Shown one piece after another: positions 1-32,637 of a stretch of DNA of 40,523 nt. This stretch comes from Proteobacteria bacterium UBA1673 (GTDB lineage: Bacteria; Pseudomonadota; Gammaproteobacteria; Comchoanobacterales; Comchoanobacteraceae). Under the pieces are notes generated by a model. It was not told the DNA's origin. It did no database searches and worked only from the letters and a program-made list of their open reading frames with translations. The stretch covers positions 1 through 40,523 of the forward strand of contig DCKN01000037.1 of assembly GCA_002320385.1 (NCBI GenBank), read 5' to 3'. Every line of letters begins with the position of its first letter. Position 1 is the stretch's first letter. The translations under genes and the position numbers were made by a program.

Positions 1-1680
1 ATAAAGCGGATTCGCCTGCATTTGTCCTTGTGGTTATGACGGCATTCAGTGCATCTACGCTTATCATCTCTATTAATCGACCACCATCAGCTGTTAACAC
101 ACTTCGACCCTGCTTAGCCCGCGCTAGCCAAAATAAAGCGGATTCGCCTGTAGACTCACCTGAAGCGATGACGTGATTCAAGCCTTGTGGCGTAATCTTC
201 TCTCTCAAACTCGGATGATGGAACAATAGCTCTCGTCCGACATTAGTACACGCTAGCCAAAATAAAGCGGATTCGCCTGCAGACTCACCTGAAGCTATCA
301 CAGCATTCAGTGCTTCTTCGCTTATCATCTCTATTAATCGACCACCATCAGCTGTTAACACACTTCGACCCTGCTTAACCCGCGCTAGCCGAAATAAAGC
401 GGATTCGCCTGCAGACTCACCTGAAGCGATGACGTGATTCAAGCCTTGTTCGCCTATCTTTCCACGTAGACTTGAATGTTTAAGTAACAAAGCTCGTCCG
501 TACTCATCACTTGCTAGCCTAGACAAGGCGGATTCGCCTGCATACTCACCTGAAGCTATCACGGCATTCAGTGCATCTTCGCTTATCATCTCTATTAATT
601 CATCATGTCTAGTTAACACAGTCACATTCTTCATTTTTATCGCCAGCCATAATCTTCCGACTCCTCTTGCGGCACGTGGATATGCTGTACCTGTCAACCA
701 AAACAAGGCGGATTCGCCTGCATGCTCACCTGAAGTTATGACATGATTCATGCCTTGTGGCGTAATCATATCTATCAAACTCGATTCATAGTACAATAGA
801 TCTCGTCCGTCAGAATATCTCGCTAGCCAAAATAATGCGGATGTGCCTGCACGCTCACCTGAAGTTATGACATGATTCATGCCTTGTGGCGTAATCTTCC
901 ATCTCAAACTCAGTTCATCATGGTACAATAGTTCTCGTCCGTCACGATTAATCGCTAGCCAAAATAATGCGGATGTGCCTGCATTTGGCCCTGTGGCTAT
1001 GACGGCATTCAGTGCATCTTCGCTTATCATCTTTATTAATCGACCATCATCAGCTGTTAACACACTACGACCTTGCTCATGTCCTGCTAGCCAAAATAAA
1101 GCGGATTCGCCTGCAGACCCACCTGAAGCGATGACGTGATTCAAGCCTTGCGGCGTAATCTTCTCTCTCAAACTCGGATGATGGAATAATAGCTCTCGTC
1201 CGTCATAAGTACACGCTAGCAAATAAATGGCGGATTTGCATGCATTTGGCCCTGTGGCTATGACGGCATTCAGTGCATCTTCGCTTATCATCTCTATTAA
1301 TCGACCATCATCAGCTGTTAACACACCTCGACCCTGTTCATCTTTTGCTAACCAAAATAATGCGGACTCTCCTATTTTTTTAACTGAAGCTATGACGTGA
1401 TTCAAGCCTTGTTCGCCTATCTTTCCACGTAGACTTGAATGTTTAAGTAACAAAGCCCGTCCGTCCTTATTAGCTGCTAGCCAAAATAATGAAGATGAGC
1501 CTTCATCCTCTCCTGATACTATCAAGGCATTCAGTGTCTTTTGGCTTATCATCCCTAATAATCGACCATCATCTGCAGTTAACACACTACGACCTTGCTC
1601 ATGTCCTGCCAGCCAAAATAGAACTGATTGCTTTTCTATATCTACTGCATTCAAAACTTGCTCTGTGATACGTATTCTTA
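1..1680 (-). repeat. Coding tandem repeat array. Units alternate between 132 and 129 bp (a 261-bp super-unit of two subtypes), with one 180-bp unit.
   Basis: The anchor word gcggattcgcctg (or close variants) starts at 6, 138, 267, 399, 528, 708, 837, 969, 1101, 1230, 1362 and about 1491 and 1621. Successive offsets are 132, 129, 132, 129, 180, 129, 132, 132, 129, 132, 129, 132. Distant units such as 121-240 and 1081-1200 are nearly identical at the DNA level. Confidence 0.9.
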
Positions 1681-1894
1681 GCGCTTTATCACGCAATAAT
1701 ATCCATCGTCCACAAACATGTAATGCCAAGCAATATGCAATACTCTTGCCAGCATACTTGCCATCTCGGATCACAGCGCTGATATCGATATTATCACTTA
1801 CATCGACTCCATCTGTTATGGACTCAGTATTCTCTGCAATGATGGAAAGGTCTATCTCTGGATAGTATTTTGTTAGAAAGTCCCGCAGTTTCAT
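1..1894 (-). CDS. Tandem-repeat protein. The N-terminus is complete and the C-terminal part runs off the left window edge. It has at least 13 copies of a 43/44-aa repeat (alpha-solenoid, ANK/ARM-like) and is a candidate secreted effector.
   Basis: My own reverse-strand translation starts at ATG (complement of 1892-1894) and reads MKLRDFLTKYYPEIDLSIIAENTESITDGVDVSDN.... It stays open to position 1. It is missing from the ORF track, apparently because there is no stop inside the window. The motif ..(A/G)LN(A/H)VIASGESAGESALFWLA-x4-GR-x-(L/V)L.. recurs throughout. A Trp codon of the motif (complement of 1613-1615) is in frame with the ATG, and all repeat offsets are multiples of 3. Confidence 0.75.
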   Translation of the reverse strand, partial: MKLRDFLTKYYPEIDLSIIAENTESITDGVDVSDNIDISAVIRDGKYAGKSIAYCLALHVCGRWILLRDKALRIRITEQVLNAVDIEKQSVLFWLAGHEQGRSVLTADDGRLLGMISQKTLNALIVSGEDEGSSSLFWLAANKDGRALLLKHSSLRGKIGEQGLNHVIASVKKIGESALFWLAKDEQGRGVLTADDGRLIEMISEDALNAVIATGPNACKSAIYLLACTYDGRELLFHHPSLREKITPQGLNHVIASGGSAGESALFWLAGHEQGRSVLTADDGRLIKMISEDALNAVIATGPNAGTSALFWLAINRDGRELLYHDELSLRWKITPQGMNHVITSGERAGTSALFWLARYSDGRDLLYYESSLIDMITPQGMNHVITSGEHAGESALFWLTGTAYPRAARGVGRLWLAIKMKNVTVLTRHDELIEMISEDALNAVIASGEYAGESALSRLASDEYGRALLLKHSSLRGKIGEQGLNHVIASGESAGESALFRLARVKQGRSVLTADGGRLIEMISEEALNAVIASGESAGESALFWLACTNVGRELLFHHPSLREKITPQGLNHVIASGESTGESALFWLARAKQGRSVLTADGGRLIEMISVDALNAVITTRTNAGESAL

Positions 1895-2255
1895 ATAATT
1901 ACCATTATTAATCTACTGTTGCCACCTTATCATCTACAGACACATGAGTAAAGACAATGTCGTGCCACGCTTTTAAACATCAAAATTTAGTCTGTTTAAT
2001 AATACTGAACTTTTCTGTAACTCACTTTCTTGTAGTGTTGTAATTTTTCATGAATACGGGATATTATTTCGTCTCGTGTATGCTCATCAAATTTTGGTAG
2101 CTCTTTAGCAATACTTTTTGTGTCTATTCTAATAACTGGTCAAGTATACTCAAAGTTAAGATCTTCTGTTTTTAAATTTATTTAGACGGCTTAGCGGTGA
2201 TGATTTTCTGTCATTGTGATGCTAAATTTTAATTGGGCATGTCGCAGTGTAACGA

Positions 2256-2765
2256 TTATGTATATTCTAATCTACAATCAAGATTATCGCTTGCTATTGG
2301 TTGATCTTGTCTAGATTTCTTATTGGACCATGACGTATCTGTACGGTTGGCTTTGTTAACATATTTGCTTTTGTTCGTACCTGCGATTGGAGTTTTACGC
2401 GCCCTAGAAATCTCATCATCTAAAATAGTACAAGTGATGCCAGAAATACTGCTTTTCGCTTCGAGTACAGTTTTTAGATAAACTGAGCCACCCGTATCCG
2501 TGATTACAATGATACCTGGTTGGGTGCTATCGGTTGTAAACTGACCGGTTTCCCGATTATTCATACCGTTCTGTACGGATCGTATTTGAACACTAGTTCG
2601 ATGCCATTCTGTGATACGATTACCTTCTAGAGTTTTTGGTGATGCAATGCTGACATAAGCAATTCGTTTTGATTGATTGATTAGTGTGTAATTTTTCTTT
2701 ACTAATTCCGCGTGTAGGGCTGTTGAACTGAGTGCTAGAACACAGCTAAAAAAATATTTGTACAT
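2256..2765 (-). CDS. Hypothetical secreted protein with an N-terminal signal peptide.
   Basis: 169-aa ORF. The N-terminus MYKYFFSCVLALSSTALHA/ELV looks like a Sec signal with an AxA-type cleavage site. AGGAG lies about 7 nt upstream of the ATG. I recognise no family. Confidence 0.6.
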   Translation of the reverse strand: MYKYFFSCVLALSSTALHAELVKKNYTLINQSKRIAYVSIASPKTLEGNRITEWHRTSVQIRSVQNGMNNRETGQFTTDSTQPGIIVITDTGGSVYLKTVLEAKSSISGITCTILDDEISRARKTPIAGTNKSKYVNKANRTDTSWSNKKSRQDQPIASDNLDCRLEYT

Positions 2766-3071
2766 TTAATGGCTCCTAATTGTTCTGATGATTTTAGCAT
2801 AAGCATACCACGATGCAATGCTTTTGCTGTGTTGTGACGCGGCGTCTTCTCATTGACATTATCAGACAGCTATTTTTTTGCCCCCTCTACTTTTTAGCAA
2901 TACTTGTTGATGAATATGATCAATCGCTACAGGTCTACATAATGTCCCTGAATTTCAAGTATCGCTGGCTTTCAGGTCCCATATTACGATGCGTACTTGT
3001 GTAGTGACGATATTGATGCGACTTAATGGTTCGGAATGAAATGTTCCTTAACTCTCTTGGCATGTAGCTGT

Positions 3072-3101
3072 TTGACTGCCAACAATGAAATATGTTACAA
3101 T
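3072..3101 (+). promoter_or_regulatory. Candidate sigma70 promoter, TTGACT-N18-TACAAT.
   Basis: TTGACT at 3072-3077 and TACAAT at 3096-3101, immediately upstream of the ORF that starts at 3109. Confidence 0.4.
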
Positions 3102-3108
3102 ATAATCA

Positions 3109-3612
3109 TTGATAAGAATAATACCATCATTTAGAAACTCTATCTCTGAACTCAAAGGCACTCTCGTGTTTTTTACCCGACATAACGCAGAATCTCTAAA
3201 ACCGCTCGATATTTTTTCATTACATTGTCCTACTCGTGTCACTCGTCTTCAAACACTAAAGACTTACCTGAGCCATGTCATTGATACAGTTGGTGCCTCT
3301 GATACAGTTAGCCTGTCTGCATTGAATGGCGACCAAACCGAACAGCTTATTCGATTTATAATCCAACTGACAAATTTCTATAAGCCTGATAATACAATTG
3401 ATGATGGCTTCTTTGAGTTATATAAATCCCATAAAGATGTTCGAGATTTTATCACTAAAGCCTTTGATAAAGACAAAAATAGTGACCGGATAATAGAGTT
3501 TATGTCTCGTTATACCAAATTTCTTCAACACAAAGTCGTGGGTTATTCCCAATCTATGAGGTCTTTTATAAGAAATCAGGAGATGATAATCTCTCCAAAA
3601 AGCAAATTTTAA
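3109..3612 (+). CDS. Hypothetical protein, probably the 5' half of a frameshift-split gene.
   Basis: 167-aa ORF with a TTG start and no internal ATG until near its end. A consensus-like promoter lies just upstream. The downstream ORF's frame is already open across this ORF's last codons. Confidence 0.4.
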   Translation: MIRIIPSFRNSISELKGTLVFFTRHNAESLKPLDIFSLHCPTRVTRLQTLKTYLSHVIDTVGASDTVSLSALNGDQTEQLIRFIIQLTNFYKPDNTIDDGFFELYKSHKDVRDFITKAFDKDKNSDRIIEFMSRYTKFLQHKVVGYSQSMRSFIRNQEMIISPKSKF

Positions 3613-3656
3613 ATAAACAATCAGAGCTTCTCAGCGCAATTATTCAACCGATCCAA

Positions 3657-4085
3657 TTGTTTTCTCAGTCCAATCATCACCTTTTGGCTCATTCACCGTT
3701 GTTATCTCGAGCATCTGTTTTTTTCGTTGATCTTTTATGTGATATATGCAGCAGCGATGAAGTCATTGACAAGATTAGTGAAGATAAACCGGACTTGATT
3801 TTTGAATCACTTCAATATTTTCTTTCCTTGAGAGTCATAAAAATATTTGTTGATGATGAAAAATGTCAATTCGAGGGGCTGTTCAAAATATTTTTACATA
3901 ATACTTTAGTCATACTGCGCGACTTAAAACTTGATCTTGAAAAGACCCCACCTCGATATAGTATCGAGTATTTAATCCCTGAACTCGTGCATGATGTTTT
4001 ATCAAATCTAGATTTTATTAAAGTCTGCGATCGTTACCACATCGAATCATTTCCTCATCAATCATCCTTCACACTAAATTCCTAA
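3657..4085 (+). CDS. Hypothetical protein, probably the 3' half of the same frameshift-split gene.
   Basis: 142-aa ORF with a TTG start. Its frame reads ..LSKKQILNKQSELLSAIIQPIQ.. without a stop from at least 3591, so it overlaps the end of ORF 3109-3612. Confidence 0.4.
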   Translation: MFSQSNHHLLAHSPLLSRASVFFVDLLCDICSSDEVIDKISEDKPDLIFESLQYFLSLRVIKIFVDDEKCQFEGLFKIFLHNTLVILRDLKLDLEKTPPRYSIEYLIPELVHDVLSNLDFIKVCDRYHIESFPHQSSFTLNS

Positions 4086-5279: not shown

Positions 5280-7703
5280 TCATCCGTTCTGGAAGTTTAG
5301 AGCTGAATTGCTTCTGCTTGGGTATACCGATCTATCTTTAGGGGTCGTGCTATCATGACTTGTATCGGTCGTATTTTTAGCGATAAGGGATTCAAAGTCG
5401 CTACTCGGCCATGAGTCACTCATTAAGTTTGATGCGGTTGATTTTGAAAATCCTCGACTGTTATAGTCACTTTTAATAAAAGTTGTTTGAGACTCGATAT
5501 CGGATGTGGATAGACTATCACTTTCAGCACTGTTTGAAGCGCGCCCAGTGATGTATTTGTAACAATTTTTCCCAGCTTTTCTTAGCGAACTATCCAAGTT
5601 TTTTTTTAGCTTATGTGGAAGGTCTAACAGAGTATTCGCAATTGCTCGCCACGCCGCAACATTACTTGTTTGTTTGGTGATACTTTTCTTCAAAATGTTG
5701 TCCAATACTGATGAACGAGATAATAATGTGACCGCGAAGCAATAGCTCGTTGTAAACATACACAGAAATGCTGGATTTACGCTCATATTGATTTGTATGA
5801 TTCCTGACACGATTGACATCAAAGCAACTCCAAATACTGCTGACATTATGGTTAAAATACGTATCCACAATGATGATCGATCTAGGGTCATCATCAATTT
5901 GTAGAGTTTTGGTAGATGGTCTTTGTTTGTTAGAAAATGTGCATACGTTTCGATTTGATCATTAAATGCTAGGTTGTTTTTCCCAACAGAACCATTACTG
6001 TTGATATCGACATGTCCAACAGCAACTGATATATCTGCTGCTTTCATTGCTTTCTCATCGTTGATGTCGTCGCCTATCATAATCACTGACTGTGGTGACC
6101 ACAAGTTGAATAGCTGTCCCCATATCTTCTGCGACCAAGTTGGATTGAGACCGTAGTAATTGTAGCGCTTTAAATTTTTAATGTATTCACCTTTTTTGCT
6201 GTTTTCGCCATGTAAGTCTTTACAGAAAATCACTGCATTATCGACGTCTTTCACCCGAAAACTTCTTAACAGCTCTTTGGTTTTTCTTAGGTTTTCCTCC
6301 CATCCATTCGTACTGTGTCCACTTAGAATCTTGATATTGACACCATCTCGAATGAGGTTTTTCAACATTTGTTGAGCGTCGGGAGAAATGATATAAGGCC
6401 CCTGTTTATCTTGCGGATTTTCATGCCATAGGGTTCCAGTTCGATCAAAAACGATTGTCTTACGCTTATTGATTAGAGGTAAACTTTCAGTACACATTAA
6501 AAACCCTAGATGAGGAACAAGCTTGAATACTTTGCTCAATGTAGCAGGTCTAATTACCATGTAGACACAAGGACATGCCACCATCAGCGTTAGACATAGC
6601 TTTTCAATTCCAAGAACAAATCCCACATGTAATGCTGTGGTTAATGATGAAGATAATGCTGTAGCGTACATTAAAAATAGGAAGACTCTGGTCCCTAGAT
6701 CGTCTTTCAACGTGTGTTGTTTTCGTAGATTCTTGTTTTCTTTTGACCGATTCGACTGATAGTCTTCGGTGCATAAGAAATTCCCTTGATAAACCTTATG
6801 ATGCGCCGCCAGGAGAATTTTTTCATGGTCACTTTCACTGATTGTTTTAGTGACTTTCTGCTCTCCTTGACAGTCTCTATATATCGATGTTCCTGGCATT
6901 AACTCAACCTGGACAGGGAGATAGACACCGCTCTGACTTTCACTAAGTTTATCAACGATAACGATGTCCCCTTTGCGCAGCTGATGGATTGGCTTCTCGA
7001 CAATTCTCTTATGGTTGAAGGCTAAACCTTTGACGTTTCTTTCGGGTACTTCAACTGTCACTCTGGTCGTATGGTTGTGAAAAAAAGCTGATGAATCGAA
7101 GTGAGATCTTAACCAGCGACCTAGGTTGTAAACCGATAACTGCATAAATGTATCGTGTAATAATACTTCGCCATGGATCAGTGGGTGAAAAACAATGAGC
7201 GCTGAGGAGCTCCAGGTGATGCATAGTGAGCTCAATACAATCATTTCCATGGACGGAATCCACGCCATTGTATATATCTTATCAAGTGTACTTTGAATGG
7301 ATTGTTTGATGGTGAGCAGGTTGATGTTTGTGCTCTTTTCCGCAAGCTTTGATAGCCATTCTAGCGTATATTTCGAGGTAGCCACGGTTAGTAGACAGAT
7401 TAATGCGGGTAGCGCTGAGATGTTCAGTATTGGCTGAATCGCTGCCCAAAGTAATAAAGACATGAATACTCTTCTGAGGTGTGTTTTCATGTTGATGTGT
7501 TCAAAGTCTTTGATTAGTACGTAGATAAACATCGCAGTTAGTGAAACAAAAGAGATGACACCTAATTGGCCGTGAAAAAGGAATGCCTCGAGCTCATGAA
7601 ACTGCAATAGCAGCCCCATGACCAATACAATGATATTTCTGTAAAACAGTGCATCTCTGTTTTTAGCGTCTCTGACATGCGTTGCACAACAATGATCGGC
7701 CAT
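5280..7703 (-). CDS. Divergent P1B-type (heavy-metal) P-type-ATPase-like membrane protein. It appears to lack the nucleotide-binding domain and has a Ser-rich C-terminal tail.
   Basis: Contains CPC in a TM helix (LMVACPCVYMV, residues 377-379), a phosphorylation-site motif IVFDRTGTL (D420), hinge motif MIGDDINDEKAMKAADISVAVG (544-), and an actuator loop QGE (279-281) where TGE is normal. Only about 124 residues separate D420 from GDD. There are several hydrophobic helices on both sides. Confidence 0.8.
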   Translation of the reverse strand: MADHCCATHVRDAKNRDALFYRNIIVLVMGLLLQFHELEAFLFHGQLGVISFVSLTAMFIYVLIKDFEHINMKTHLRRVFMSLLLWAAIQPILNISALPALICLLTVATSKYTLEWLSKLAEKSTNINLLTIKQSIQSTLDKIYTMAWIPSMEMIVLSSLCITWSSSALIVFHPLIHGEVLLHDTFMQLSVYNLGRWLRSHFDSSAFFHNHTTRVTVEVPERNVKGLAFNHKRIVEKPIHQLRKGDIVIVDKLSESQSGVYLPVQVELMPGTSIYRDCQGEQKVTKTISESDHEKILLAAHHKVYQGNFLCTEDYQSNRSKENKNLRKQHTLKDDLGTRVFLFLMYATALSSSLTTALHVGFVLGIEKLCLTLMVACPCVYMVIRPATLSKVFKLVPHLGFLMCTESLPLINKRKTIVFDRTGTLWHENPQDKQGPYIISPDAQQMLKNLIRDGVNIKILSGHSTNGWEENLRKTKELLRSFRVKDVDNAVIFCKDLHGENSKKGEYIKNLKRYNYYGLNPTWSQKIWGQLFNLWSPQSVIMIGDDINDEKAMKAADISVAVGHVDINSNGSVGKNNLAFNDQIETYAHFLTNKDHLPKLYKLMMTLDRSSLWIRILTIMSAVFGVALMSIVSGIIQINMSVNPAFLCMFTTSYCFAVTLLSRSSVLDNILKKSITKQTSNVAAWRAIANTLLDLPHKLKKNLDSSLRKAGKNCYKYITGRASNSAESDSLSTSDIESQTTFIKSDYNSRGFSKSTASNLMSDSWPSSDFESLIAKNTTDTSHDSTTPKDRSVYPSRSNSALNFQNG

Positions 7704-31283: not shown

Positions 31284-32336
31284 CTATCGGGTGCTGTTTG
31301 GTCTTGATGGGAGGCTTCCTTGCTCGGGTTCACGCTTATCATCATGATTTGGATGATCTAAACGTGCTTCATAACTAGTCACTCTATTTTCTAGATCGTT
31401 TTTTACCTTATTTACCCATGAATTTTCTGGTCGATTCTCTTGATCTGGTGATACCTCGTTCACTCTCTGCTGAGCATCCATAGACTTATCAGTTGCTTTT
31501 TTCGACAATCCTATGGTCCTTTTTTCAACAGCTTTTACATTACCATCCCCATCGATCAAATTGTTTTGTAGCGCATTGGCGATTTCATGCCAATTGTGAT
31601 ACTTTAAAGCGAGAACGTCATCACATTGATACACTTGTTTATCATTTATCTTATTCTCTAATGTATCCAGCCCGTACGCATTGAGAAGGTTTCTGATGGG
31701 TGATGGTTCATCTTTTCCCATATTTATAGAATCAATACTGTCGATATATTGACGGACTAATTGGGTTTCAAGATTCTGATTATCATTATTTATCAATTTT
31801 AGCATCATATCTTGATGGTCTCTCAACTTATCATCAAACATCGTCAGATTGTTCTTGAATGTTTCCAACTGTGTGGCACTCATTTTACCCATTTTTAGTT
31901 TTTTTGGATCTTTGAGCTTTAGATAAGGCACTAATAATAATTGCGTATAAAATAGCGCTTTGTAGATCTCTTCACCATTCGAGGGAGTGATATCATCTGA
32001 ATTAAATTTTTCTATGTTCTTACTTTGCCTTTCCAATAGTTCTTGGATACTGATTGTTGGCTCACCTTCAATAATTTCATTGGAAATATCTTCATAATTA
32101 TAGATCACATCCGATAGATCCTGATTGCCGATCATTTTAGTCTCAGCTCCAATATCCGGACTGCACAATATCTCTCTGAAAGGTTCAGGGAGTGCTTTGA
32201 TTTCTTCCTTACCTCTGTAATATGGTTCACCATCTCTTAGAAAAGCCAAAAGCTCTTCTTCTCTTGCGTGGTGGTCTACATAGCTGGCAGCAATGGCGAT
32301 GGCACTTAACAGCGATATGACAAAATAATGTTCCAT
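31284..32336 (-). CDS. Hypothetical protein with an N-terminal hydrophobic anchor or signal and an acidic, coiled-coil-rich body (ORFan).
   Basis: ATG at 32336 gives MEHYFVISLLSAIAIAASY.... The track ORF starts earlier at a TTG. I recognise no family. Confidence 0.55.
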   Translation of the reverse strand: MEHYFVISLLSAIAIAASYVDHHAREEELLAFLRDGEPYYRGKEEIKALPEPFREILCSPDIGAETKMIGNQDLSDVIYNYEDISNEIIEGEPTISIQELLERQSKNIEKFNSDDITPSNGEEIYKALFYTQLLLVPYLKLKDPKKLKMGKMSATQLETFKNNLTMFDDKLRDHQDMMLKLINNDNQNLETQLVRQYIDSIDSINMGKDEPSPIRNLLNAYGLDTLENKINDKQVYQCDDVLALKYHNWHEIANALQNNLIDGDGNVKAVEKRTIGLSKKATDKSMDAQQRVNEVSPDQENRPENSWVNKVKNDLENRVTSYEARLDHPNHDDKREPEQGSLPSRPNSTR

Positions 32337-32637
32337 AGCAGTAACGGTCTTGTATATGGTGTGTATATAGATCAAAAATAATTTTTTGTCACAAATATTA
32401 TTGCGATATATCTCTGTATCAATGAATAAAATTTCACTTATTTACCCGCTATCGTGTCACCACTCTTTTTCCATCTTTAATTCTGGATTGATCGATAAAA
32501 GATACAGTAAAATTTCCTATTTTGTCTTATCTCTATCTGCGGCAATAAATTTCAGTTCTTTTTGATCAAAATCCGTTATTTTCCTGGCGATCAACCATGA
32601 GTTATTGTAACATAAAGTATTTTAAGATAATTGCGTT

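What the first reader, a model, noticed from the sequence alone, without database searches (positions are those of the whole stretch)
1..1894. Unlisted reverse-strand gene made of at least 13 near-identical 43/44-aa tandem repeats with a two-subtype (261-bp) super-repeat
Seen in sequence: the ORF track shows only short plus-strand ORFs here. The reverse strand, however, is open from the ATG at 1894 to the window edge. The anchor word gcggattcgcctg recurs at offsets of 132/129 bp, all multiples of 3, so each copy is read in the same frame. Two unit subtypes alternate. Subtype A reads GRSVLTADGGRLIEMISEDALNAVIASGESAGESALFWLA. Subtype B reads GRELLFHHPSLREKITPQGLNHVIASGESAGESALFWLA. One unit is 60 aa long. 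Units more than 900 bp apart are nearly identical in DNA, which implies recent expansion or ongoing gene conversion. Established knowledge: the core G-x-S-A-L-x-W-L-A-x4-G-R-x-x-L resembles the ankyrin core G-x-TPLH-x-AA-x2-GH-x3-V-x2-LL, but the period is that of ARM/HEAT repeats (about 42-44 aa). Inference: this is an alpha-solenoid protein-interaction scaffold, plausibly a secreted effector with a variable copy number. I cannot assign the repeat to a named family.
Basis: partly seen in the sequence, partly recalled or inferred. Interest (0 to 1): 0.7.

Follow-up and report, generated by a model that had tools for sequence, protein, structure and literature searches.

The report
Unnamed ankyrin-like repeat effector gene
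The window edge carries a real, intact gene built almost entirely of 43/44-residue helical repeats from a family no database names, found only in Legionella-like intracellular bacteria, where it is often fused to ubiquitin-ligase domains and so is most likely injected into a protist host to bind its proteins.

Summary
The minus strand is open from ATG 1894 to base 1 (631 codons). It holds 13 regular 43/44-aa units in alternating A/B subtypes (261-bp super-repeat), two degenerate N-terminal units and one 60-aa unit. "Near-identical" is overstated: same-subtype units share 78-92% of their DNA.

Five independent assemblies match the window exactly, and all break inside the array. A metagenome contig overlaps the last 357 nt without mismatch and reaches a stop codon. 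That gives an intact ORF of at least 857 aa with no catalytic domain.

Pfam, NCBIfam and PDB sequence searches find no family. AlphaFold2 predicts a confident helical solenoid (pLDDT 92-94). Its best structural matches are weak: ankyrin, PUF and armadillo domains.

An exhaustive profile search finds 543 protein clusters. Confirmed genomic members lie only in Legionellales, Coxiellaceae, a Francisellaceae-labelled MAG, unclassified MAGs and the choanoflagellate symbionts Comchoanobacter/Synchoanobacter. Of 85 short members, 22 carry U-box/RING domains and 21 have nuclear-localisation-like tails. One long member carries SidC_N.

Best reading: a translocated host-protein-binding effector built on an unnamed ankyrin-like repeat. 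Secretion, target and exact copy number are not shown.

The parts
1..1894 (-). 5' part (631 codons) of the repeat-protein gene. It continues off the window; the reconstructed ORF is at least 2574 nt (857 aa).
   Evidence: Open frame. Identical in five other assemblies. Contig L035 overlaps the last 357 nt with 0 mismatches and reaches a stop.
1808..1894 (-). N-terminal non-repeat leader, aa 1-29 (MKLRDFLTKYYPEIDLSIIAENTES...). It has no Sec-type hydrophobic signal.
   Evidence: Translation. The same leader is conserved in the orthologue on L006.
1559..1807 (-). Two degenerate N-terminal units (aa 30-72 and 73-112), probably the N-terminal cap of the solenoid.
   Evidence: Unit-HMM hits of 32 and 43 bits, against 56-73 bits for regular units.
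776..1558 (-). Six regular units (aa 113-373) alternating between A (43 aa, I-x-M-I-S-E-D-A-L-N-A-V-I...) and B (44 aa, R-E-K-I-T-P-Q-G-L-N-H-V-I...).
   Evidence: Confident AlphaFold2 solenoid model of aa 73-373.
596..775 (-). Irregular 60-aa unit (aa 374-433) with a 17-aa insertion that partly duplicates the first helix (FWLTGTAYPRAARGVGRLWLA).
   Evidence: The other two reading frames encode nothing repeat-like, so this is not a compensated frameshift.
1..595 (-). Four and a half further units (aa 434-631) running into the window edge. This is the most homogenised part of the array (units up to 92% identical).
1895..2255 (-). 360-nt AT-rich upstream intergenic region containing the presumed promoter.
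   Evidence: Only weak sigma-70-like matches (9 of 12) on the minus strand. No experimental support.

Best explanation
The gene encodes a protein of at least 857 aa that is almost entirely a helical solenoid of about 18 tandem 43/44-aa units. The consensus unit is xxKIxxxALNxVIxxGxxAGxSALxWLAxxxxGRxLLxxxxxL.

Each unit is predicted to have two main helices (SALFWLA, then xEGRxLLxx), two one-turn helices (SLRxK, xxALN) and a 12-residue loop. In effect it is an ankyrin-like GxSALxxLA helix pair with the connecting hairpin enlarged by about 10 residues.

Variation between units is concentrated in the loop just before helix 1 (positions 17-19 and 21) and in the turn after it (positions 29-32). These are the equivalents of the target-contact positions of ankyrin repeats.

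Inference: an uncultured marine Legionellales-like gammaproteobacterium delivers the protein into its protist host, most likely through a Dot/Icm-type IVB system. There the solenoid binds or sequesters a host protein. This copy has no catalytic domain. Relatives attach the same solenoid to U-box/RING or SidC-type ubiquitin-ligase domains, where it would act as the substrate-recognition arm. Many relatives also carry a C-terminal nuclear-localisation-like tail.

Unit duplication, loss and gene conversion keep the array partly homogenised, which is why short-read assemblies break inside it.

Shown: gene integrity, repeat anatomy, predicted fold, absence from databases, family size, taxonomic range and domain partners. 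Inferred: secretion, host-protein binding and the ankyrin relationship.
For: Gene integrity
- Intact ORF of 857 aa after joining L035 (357-nt exact overlap; the longest internal exact repeat is 86 nt).
- An orthologue on L006 has the same N-terminal leader and a C-terminal tail 79% identical. A neighbouring GNAT gene is 92% identical between L035 and L006.
- No signal peptide and no Pfam domain anywhere in the protein.

Fold
- AlphaFold2 solenoid models: pLDDT 92.2 / pTM 0.90 and pLDDT 93.7.
- The best Foldseek hit is an ankyrin domain (IkappaB-zeta, E 9e-4). TRPV-type and AnkX ankyrin domains give the best TM-scores for the 3-unit model, up to 0.52.
- Hypervariable columns are 17-19, 21 and 29-32. 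At those columns 63-72% of codon comparisons differ non-synonymously, against 15-34% elsewhere, with no excess of synonymous change.

Family size and range
- 543 representative proteins at E<=1e-3, and 115 at E<=1e-30.
- 25 of the 28 loci returned by the GTDB genome scan are true members. All lie in Legionellales, Legionellaceae, Coxiellaceae, a Francisellaceae-labelled MAG, unclassified Gammaproteobacteria/Pseudomonadota MAGs, or Ca. Comchoanobacter / Ca. Synchoanobacter.
- The Comchoano genomes encode a complete, expressed Dot/Icm-like T4SS and many host-interaction proteins (PMC9418006).
- The window's LeuRS is 52% identical to Legionella and Francisella LeuRS and 67% identical to that of unnamed MAGs.

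Domain partners and neighbours
- 22 of 85 short members carry zf-Nse, RING or U-box domains.
- Long members carry SidC_N (E 1e-28), RING, ULD and XPC-binding domains.
- The U-box member P0006 sits between two ubiquitin-domain genes and an IcsB-like gene.
- 21 of 85 members have a K/R cluster in the last 30 aa, against 6% of internal 30-aa windows.
- Tandem ANK, ARM and LRR repeats fused to other domains are typical of Dot/Icm effectors (PMC11696984).
Against: - No secretion system, chaperone or translocation signal could be examined for the window organism. Its C-terminus (...GLFASAASGNGLVSPRNH) has no obvious E-block.
- This copy has neither a U-box nor an NLS-like tail, so partner-domain evidence is borrowed from paralogues and distant relatives.
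- All structural matches are weak. For the 7-unit model only one reaches E<=1e-3 and TM is at most 0.38. For the 3-unit model none reaches E<0.1, and PUF and ARM domains score about as well as ANK.
- A profile-profile comparison with ankyrin units aligns only 13 columns, at 17% probability.
- The Francisellaceae label on one MAG would not fit a Dot/Icm route if that label is correct.
- The hypervariable positions were chosen because they vary, so the N/S contrast is partly circular.
Confidence: 0.6

Rival explanations
1. It is simply a divergent ankyrin-repeat protein: a true evolutionary member of the ANK superfamily whose inter-repeat hairpin grew by about 10 residues. No new family is needed. 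Its function would still be protein binding.
For: - The motif G-x-S-A-L-x-W-L-A matches the ANK G-x-T-P/A-L-H-x-A-A.
- The best Foldseek hit is an ANK domain, and ANK domains with long finger loops (TRPV, Nanchung) dominate both hit lists.
- The ANK protein next to the orthologue has 39-41-aa units of the form GxTALMWAA...LLL...LAALN, which look intermediate. The tool's precomputed Pfam table lists Ank families for it.
- The variable positions map onto ANK contact positions.
Against: - No Ank-clan Pfam model hits the window protein even at E<=10.
- No Ank family appears among the families matched by the 85 short and 36 long members scanned.
- A unit profile finds none of the many ANK chains in the PDB at E<=10.
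- hhalign against ANK units gives 17% probability over 13 columns.
- The period is 43/44 aa, not 33.
- TM-scores are at most 0.52.
Confidence: 0.2
2. It is a modular nucleic-acid-binding repeat protein of the TALE or PUF type. Each unit would read one base through its few hypervariable residues, and the protein would act in the host nucleus.
For: - PUF domains (FBF-2, PUF-3) are among the best Foldseek hits (E 0.007-0.3).
- Units are highly conserved except for 2-4 residues in a loop and a turn. In Comchoanobacter the units are nearly invariant outside those sites.
- NLS-like C-terminal tails occur in 25% of short members.
- SF1/SF2 helicase fusions occur in several long members.
- ITPQGLNHVIASG superficially resembles the TALE LTPEQVVAIASNG (own recollection).
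Against: - No TAL_effector or PUF Pfam hit appears at any threshold.
- The unit profile hits no TALE, BurrH or PUF chain in the PDB.
- No TALE structure is among the top 50 Foldseek hits for either model.
- The VIASG segment is predicted to be loop, not helix.
- The dominant partners are E3-ligase domains, which point to protein substrates.
- The window copy has no NLS-like tail.
- The arrays are net acidic; this is weak evidence, because TALE repeats are acidic too.
Confidence: 0.08
3. It is a non-secreted bacterial protein, for example a cytoplasmic scaffold or cell-surface repeat protein, with no role in the host.
For: No secretion system or signal was seen in the window. Helical repeat proteins also occur in free-living bacteria.
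Against: - The family was confirmed only in lineages of intracellular or host-associated Gammaproteobacteria.
- Fusions to eukaryote-type U-box/RING, SidC_N and ubiquitin-like domains, and the NLS-like tails, have no obvious use inside a bacterium.
- There is no signal peptide or anchor for surface display.
Confidence: 0.09
4. The array is a decaying pseudogene or an assembly artefact (collapsed or expanded repeats).
For: - Every short-read assembly ends inside the array.
- L001 and L035 diverge after a shared 430-nt stretch.
- The orthologue contains a scaffold gap inside its array.
- One unit is irregular.
Against: - There is no stop or frameshift over 2574 nt.
- Five assemblies from different samples and assemblers are base-identical over up to 1894 nt.
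- The orthologue keeps the frame, the A/B alternation and both termini.
- The irregular unit is in frame, and its other frames encode nothing repeat-like.
Confidence: 0.03

Closest known systems
Ankyrin-repeat Dot/Icm effectors of Legionella and Coxiella (e.g. AnkB/LegAU13 with an F-box plus ANK; AnkX with FIC plus ANK)
   Same: - Tandem helical repeats form a solenoid.
- The G-x-[ST]-[AP]-L-x-x-[AL]-A first-helix motif is shared.
- Variable residues flank that helix.
- The repeats are often fused to a ubiquitin-ligase adaptor or enzyme domain.
- The host range is the same kind of bacteria.
- AnkX is among the Foldseek hits (TMq 0.47).
   Different: - The period is 43/44 aa (41 aa in Comchoanobacter) instead of 33.
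- Two extra one-turn helices and a 12-residue loop replace the ANK hairpin.
- No Ank Pfam model matches.
- hhalign probability is 17%.
Armadillo / HEAT repeats
   Same: The period is about 42-44 aa. The fold is an all-helical solenoid used for protein binding. Beta-catenin and APC appear among the weak Foldseek hits.
   Different: There are no Arm or HEAT Pfam hits. The unit has two main helices plus two helical turns, not the H1-H2-H3 pattern. Foldseek probabilities are mostly below 0.4.
Bacterial U-box and SidC-type E3-ligase effectors (Legionella LubX, GobX, SidC)
   Same: About a quarter of short family members begin with a U-box/RING-type domain, and one long member carries SidC_N. The architecture is a catalytic E3 module joined to a repeat arm.
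   Different: The window protein has no E3 domain at all. As far as I know, LubX, GobX and SidC do not contain this repeat (own knowledge, not tested).
TALE / PUF modular nucleic-acid-binding repeats
   Same: Long arrays of highly similar units differ at a few positions. NLS-like tails occur in many family members. PUF proteins are among the top Foldseek hits.
   Different: There is no sequence or profile match. The period and the predicted secondary structure differ. The partner domains point to protein targets.
Host-interaction repertoire of Ca. Comchoanobacter / UBA7916 (Needham et al. 2022, PMC9418006)
   Same: Those genomes carry tandem genes of this family: 791 and 931 aa with 13 and 17 units. 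They are marine and protist-associated, as the window organism appears to be. The paper notes that contig ends are enriched in repeats.
   Different: In the passages read, the paper reports ANK, LRR, Sel1 and a TAL effector by Pfam and does not mention this repeat. Whether the window organism belongs to UBA7916 was not established.

Membership tests
Ankyrin repeat (Pfam clan Ank) | Significant match to the Ank, Ank_2, Ank_3, Ank_4 or Ank_5 profile HMMs | tested here: not met
   No Ank model at E<=10 for the window protein. No Ank family among the families reported for the 85 short members (top 25 of 27 families shown) or the 36 long members.
Ankyrin repeat (Pfam clan Ank) | Repeat period of about 33 residues | tested here: not met
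   Units are 43/44 aa in the window and 41-44 aa in relatives.
Ankyrin repeat (Pfam clan Ank) | G-x-T-P-L-H-x-A-A first-helix motif followed by a second antiparallel helix | tested here: inconclusive
   G-x-S-A-L-x-W-L-A is conserved, with S, L and L in at least 90% of units. hhalign against ANK units aligns only these 13 columns, at 17% probability.
Ankyrin repeat (Pfam clan Ank) | Structural superposition on solved ANK domains | tested here: inconclusive
   The best Foldseek hit is an ANK domain (9bor, E 9e-4), but TM is at most 0.38 for seven units. For three units E is at least 0.1 and TMq at most 0.52.
Armadillo / HEAT repeats | Match to Arm or HEAT profiles and a three-helix (or helix-hairpin) unit of about 40-47 aa | tested here: not met
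   The period fits, but there is no Pfam hit. Beta-catenin and APC appear only at Foldseek E>=0.03 with low probability. The predicted unit has 2 main and 2 short helices.
TAL effector repeats | 33-35-aa units matching PF03377, with a two-residue RVD loop | tested here: not met
   No PF03377 hit. The unit profile hits no PDB chain. No TALE structure is in the Foldseek top 50.
PUF / Pumilio repeats | 36-aa three-helix units matching PF00806, with RNA-contact residues on helix 2 | tested here: inconclusive
   No Pfam hit. FBF-2 and PUF-3 are among the top Foldseek hits, but at E 0.007-0.3 and TMq at most 0.40.
Dot/Icm (type IVB) translocated effector | The organism encodes a Dot/Icm system | not testable with these tools
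   No dot/icm gene lies in the 40.5-kb window. Family-bearing Comchoanobacter and Synchoanobacter do encode one, according to PMC9418006.
Dot/Icm (type IVB) translocated effector | C-terminal translocation signal (E-block, small polar residues) and demonstrated translocation | not tested
   The C-terminus was recovered from L035. It was inspected only by eye; no predictor or assay was available.
Dot/Icm (type IVB) translocated effector | Eukaryote-like or effector-specific domains, and restriction to host-associated lineages | tested here: met
   At family level: U-box/RING in 22 of 85 short members, SidC_N, ULD, and ubiquitin-domain neighbours. The 25 confirmed genomic loci are all in Legionellales-like lineages, unclassified MAGs or protist symbionts.
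U-box / RING E3 ubiquitin ligase | Presence of a U-box or RING domain in this protein | tested here: not met
   No such hit in aa 1-631 or in the recovered C-terminal 344 aa. It is present in relatives P0006, P0146 and others.

The most novel reading that the evidence does not exclude
The 41-44-aa unit is a new programmable recognition module. [quoted passage not shown] Each unit reads one element of a linear target (DNA, RNA or an extended peptide) through its 2-4 hypervariable residues. This would be a third natural 'code' system beside TALE and PUF repeats. Gene conversion would continually reshuffle the units.
Probability: 0.07. Interest if true: 0.85.

Novelty: new variant of a known kind. 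Interest (0 to 1): 0.5.

Why it matters
Tandem-repeat effectors are how Legionella-like bacteria capture host proteins. This work defines a sizeable repeat family (at least 543 clusters at 50% identity) that has no Pfam, NCBIfam or PDB representative, so current annotation misses it. That includes the published Comchoanobacter genomes.

The family's recurrent fusion to U-box, RING and SidC ligase domains suggests a new substrate-recognition arm for bacterial hijacking of host ubiquitination. The nuclear-localisation-like tails point to a possible class of nucleus-targeted effectors in uncultured marine symbionts of protists.

There is also a practical point. The family systematically breaks short-read assemblies, so it is under-counted in MAG-based effector surveys. 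A profile built from the unit alignment would correct that.

Tried and rejected
- Pfam, NCBIfam and PDB sequence searches of the window protein returned only sub-threshold or repeat-inflated hits. The SMC_hinge hit (27 bits, above the gathering score) is rejected. The same model also hits the Comchoanobacter protein with no significant stretch, and the matched region is the irregular unit.
- The unit profile against PDB sequences found nothing at E<=10.
I replaced it with a hand-built degenerate 86-nt unit pattern.
- The third homologous-protein search, run with the unit alignment, found nothing because the word index needs longer queries. That search was wasted.
- The first word-indexed search found only 7 homologues and badly under-reported the family (against 543).
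- TALE-like idea: rejected on Pfam, PDB and Foldseek evidence.
- A compensated frameshift as the origin of the 60-aa unit: rejected.
- A degenerate U-box in the C-terminal domain of P0001, suspected by eye: no Pfam support. That region is in any case absent from the window orthologue.
- Three of the 28 genome-scan loci (one Ramlibacter MAG, two Opitutales MAGs) are chance pattern matches with no HMM support.
- Net charge and pI do not discriminate between protein and nucleic-acid binding.
- Naming the window organism: LeuRS only places it near Legionellales, Francisellaceae and unnamed MAGs. Cluster look-ups carried no organism names.
Full report
1. THE OBSERVATION

Translating window 1-1894 on the minus strand gives 631 codons without a stop, starting at ATG 1894. 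An in-frame TAG lies 24 nt upstream, so 1894 is the first usable ATG. The ORF listing shows only two short plus-strand ORFs here because it omits ORFs that run off the source.

Tandem Repeats Finder reports periods of 129, 132 and 261 nt, and the 261-nt rows score best.

Splitting at the conserved L-N gives units of 40, 43, 44, 43, 44, 44, 43, 60, 43, 44, 43, 44 and 43 aa. A unit HMM finds one more degenerate unit at aa 38-72. A-type units (43 aa, IEMISEDALNAVIA.G.NAG.SALFWLA....GRELLFHHPSL) alternate with B-type units (44 aa, REKITPQGLNHVIASG.SAGESALFWLA..EQGRSVLTADDGRL).

"Near-identical" is too strong. DNA identity is 78-92% within a subtype and 50-70% between subtypes. The longest exact repeats are 86 and 65 nt. 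The 60-aa unit carries an in-frame 17-aa insertion, and its other reading frames encode nothing repeat-like.

2. THE ARRAY IS NOT AN ARTEFACT, AND THE GENE CAN BE COMPLETED

The neighbouring 169-aa gene lies on seven public contigs. Five were retrieved, from Tara Oceans/ENA, IMG, NCBI and Logan. All five are identical to the window at every overlapping base; two span all 1894 nt, and one runs 35 codons further. All end inside the array.

The closest homologue, P0001, turned out to be the C-terminal part of an orthologue. The full ORF on L006 starts MNLQDFLTKYYPEIDLSIIAENTES, like the window protein. It carries 20 or more units around a scaffold gap and ends in a non-repeat region.

I scanned the metagenome contigs with the C-terminal region of P0001 and found a single relative, L035. 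Its first 357 nt equal the last 357 nt of the window gene with no mismatch. It then runs through three more units and a roughly 100-aa tail, 79% identical to the P0001 tail, to a stop codon. A GNAT gene downstream is 92% identical between L035 and L006, which supports synteny.

The joined ORF is 2574 nt, or 857 aa, with no internal stop.

One caveat remains. L001 and L035 agree for 430 nt and then diverge. The array may therefore contain a long internal duplication. 857 aa is a minimum, and the unit count (about 18) is unresolved.

3. WHAT THE PROTEIN IS

Sequence searches find no family:
- No Pfam or NCBIfam family passes for aa 1-631 or for the recovered C-terminus.
- The one above-threshold hit, SMC_hinge, is a repeat-driven artefact.
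- PDB sequence searches with the protein, the unit profile and the tail find nothing meaningful.
- The N-terminus has no signal peptide.

AlphaFold2 gives confident all-helical repeat models:
- Seven units: pLDDT 92.2, pTM 0.90.
- Three units: pLDDT 93.7, pTM 0.89.
- Each unit has helix 1 (SALFWLA), helix 2 (xEGRxLLxx), two one-turn helices and a 12-residue loop.

Foldseek against the PDB finds no close structure:
- Seven units: the best hit is the IkappaB-zeta ankyrin domain (E 9e-4, TM 0.36). TRPV ankyrin domains follow, with PUF and ARM domains interspersed.
- Three units: nothing below E 0.1. The hits are a mix of long-loop ANK domains (TRPV3 TMq 0.52, Nanchung, AnkX), PUF and beta-catenin.

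A profile-profile comparison with the 39-41-aa ANK units of the L006 neighbour aligns only G-x-S-A-L-x-W-L-A against G-x-T-A-L-x-x-A-A, at 17% probability.

So the unit works like an ankyrin repeat with an enlarged connector. Membership of the ANK family is not demonstrated.

Variation among units is concentrated at positions 17-19, 21 and 29-32. These flank helix 1. To my knowledge they correspond to the positions randomised in designed ankyrin binders (positions 2, 3, 5, 13 and 14).

At those codons 63-72% of pairwise comparisons are non-synonymous, against 15-34% elsewhere, with no excess of synonymous change. This test is partly circular, because the positions were chosen for their variability.

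4. THE FAMILY

The word-indexed search found only 7 homologues. An exhaustive HMMER search with a 47-unit profile found 543 representative proteins at E<=1e-3 and 115 at E<=1e-30.

Partner domains in 85 members of up to about 720 aa:
- 22 carry zf-Nse, RING or U-box domains and 2 carry DnaJ. No known repeat family matches.
- 21 end in a K/R cluster of classical NLS type (e.g. VTKRPRRI, PAKRTRRP, NKKPRI). Only 6% of internal 30-aa windows have such a cluster.

Partner domains in 36 longer members:
- SidC_N (E 1e-28), RING, ULD_2 and XPC-binding.
- Sel1.
- SF1/SF2 helicase domains.

The U-box member P0006 lies between two ubiquitin-domain genes and an IcsB-like gene.

A degenerate 86-nt unit pattern matched 6 of the window's units and none of 100 shuffles. 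Scanned over 185,579 species genomes, it returned 28 loci.

HMM scoring confirms 25 of these 28 loci. They lie in:
- Legionellales, Legionellaceae and Coxiellaceae MAGs.
- One Francisellaceae-labelled MAG (four loci).
- Unclassified Gammaproteobacteria and Pseudomonadota MAGs.
- The choanoflagellate associates Ca. Comchoanobacter bicostacola and Ca. Synchoanobacter obligatus.

In the closed Comchoanobacter genome, two tandem genes (791 and 931 aa) carry 13 and 17 units of 41 aa. They end in ...KKRRYK and ...PPAKRSRPAKI.

The paper describing those bacteria reports a complete, expressed Dot/Icm-like T4SS, abundant eukaryote-like repeat proteins, and contig ends enriched in repeats. In the passages read it does not mention this repeat (PMC9418006). 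Tandem repeats fused to other domains are a hallmark of Dot/Icm effectors (PMC11696984).

5. THE HOST ORGANISM

The window is ordinary chromosomal DNA. It encodes MutY, LexA plus a Y-family polymerase, Ndk, RlmN, MreBC, GatAB, MiaB, PhoH, LeuRS, PlsY, TsaD and one tRNA.

Its LeuRS is 67% identical to that of unnamed Pseudomonadota MAGs and about 52% identical to Legionella, Francisella and Methylophaga LeuRS. All sources are marine metagenomes.

The organism is therefore an uncultured marine gammaproteobacterium near the Legionellales / Francisellaceae / UBA7916 radiation. I could not place it more precisely or check it for a secretion system.

6. EVOLUTION OF THE ARRAY

The A/B alternation is shared with the orthologue, so the 261-nt super-repeat is older than the split between the two organisms.

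Most internal units nevertheless match another unit of the same gene better (75-92% DNA identity) than any unit of the orthologue (69-86%). The unique flanks are 82-87% identical. That pattern indicates unit turnover or gene conversion after divergence.

No copy-number difference is visible among the five assemblies.

7. VERDICT

The most likely mechanism (confidence about 0.6) is a translocated host-protein-binding solenoid. This copy has no catalytic domain. In relatives the same solenoid serves as the recognition arm of U-box/RING/SidC ligases and of nucleus-directed proteins.

Rivals:
- A merely divergent ANK protein (0.2; same function).
- A TALE/PUF-like nucleic-acid reader (0.08).
- A non-secreted bacterial protein (0.09).
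- A pseudogene or assembly artefact (0.03).

The kind of protein, a tandem-repeat effector, is well known. The repeat family itself is unnamed and structurally unrepresented. I therefore rate it a new variant of a known kind, of moderate interest.

Noticed in passing
L006 1331-12487 (scaffold MEHR18-1...6427): One 20-kb scaffold carries at least three genes of the repeat family: a 151-aa ORF, P0002 and the orthologue of the window gene. Next to them is a 765-aa ankyrin protein whose ANK units are unusually long (39-41 aa, GxTALMWAAQNGHxExVQLLLxxLxxxxxLAALN). These may be an intermediate form between ANK and the new repeat.
   Followed up: partly
L036 131-7540 (Logan SRR21359122_567): The U-box-plus-repeat protein P0006 is flanked by two genes encoding ubiquitin / Rad60-SLD domains, a 2OG-Fe(II) oxygenase and an 1114-aa IcsB_M-domain protein. 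This looks like a small island of host-ubiquitin-directed effectors.
   Followed up: no
L012 1690-7173 (Ca. Comchoanobacter bicostacola NZ_CP092900.1): Two tandem paralogues (791 and 931 aa) share a roughly 230-aa N-terminal domain with no Pfam hit. Each then has 13 or 17 nearly invariant 41-aa units and an NLS-like C-terminal tail.
   Followed up: partly
window 596-682 (aa 405-433 of the repeat protein): The Pfam SMC_hinge model scores 27.4 bits (gathering score 22.5) on the irregular unit. The same model hits the Comchoanobacter protein with no significant stretch, so this is a repeat-inflated false positive that automatic annotation could propagate.
   Followed up: yes
window 10862-12739 (-): A LexA-type repressor (LexA_DNA_bind plus Peptidase_S24) lies directly upstream of a Y-family DNA polymerase (IMS) gene, followed by a small RnfH-like gene. 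This is a compact SOS/mutagenesis cassette.
   Followed up: no
window 2256-4085; 12974-14686; 31284-32375; 38453-39316: Several ORFs of 142-570 aa have no Pfam hit. They include three small ones immediately upstream of the repeat gene. L035 likewise has 761-, 600- and 482-aa ORFs without hits just downstream of the gene. The locus may be an effector-rich, fast-evolving region.
   Followed up: no
window 5280-7703 (-): An 807-aa protein has only a weak partial HAD-hydrolase match (aa 436-557). The rest is unassigned.
   Followed up: no
L007-L037 (many loci): Family genes very often sit at contig ends (e.g. L008, L009, L014, L015, L017, L018, L022, L024). The repeat systematically breaks short-read assemblies, so it will be under-counted in MAG surveys.
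   Followed up: partly
window 40019-40091 (+): A single tRNA gene (Rfam RF00005, 69.8 bits) lies near the right end of the window.
   Followed up: no
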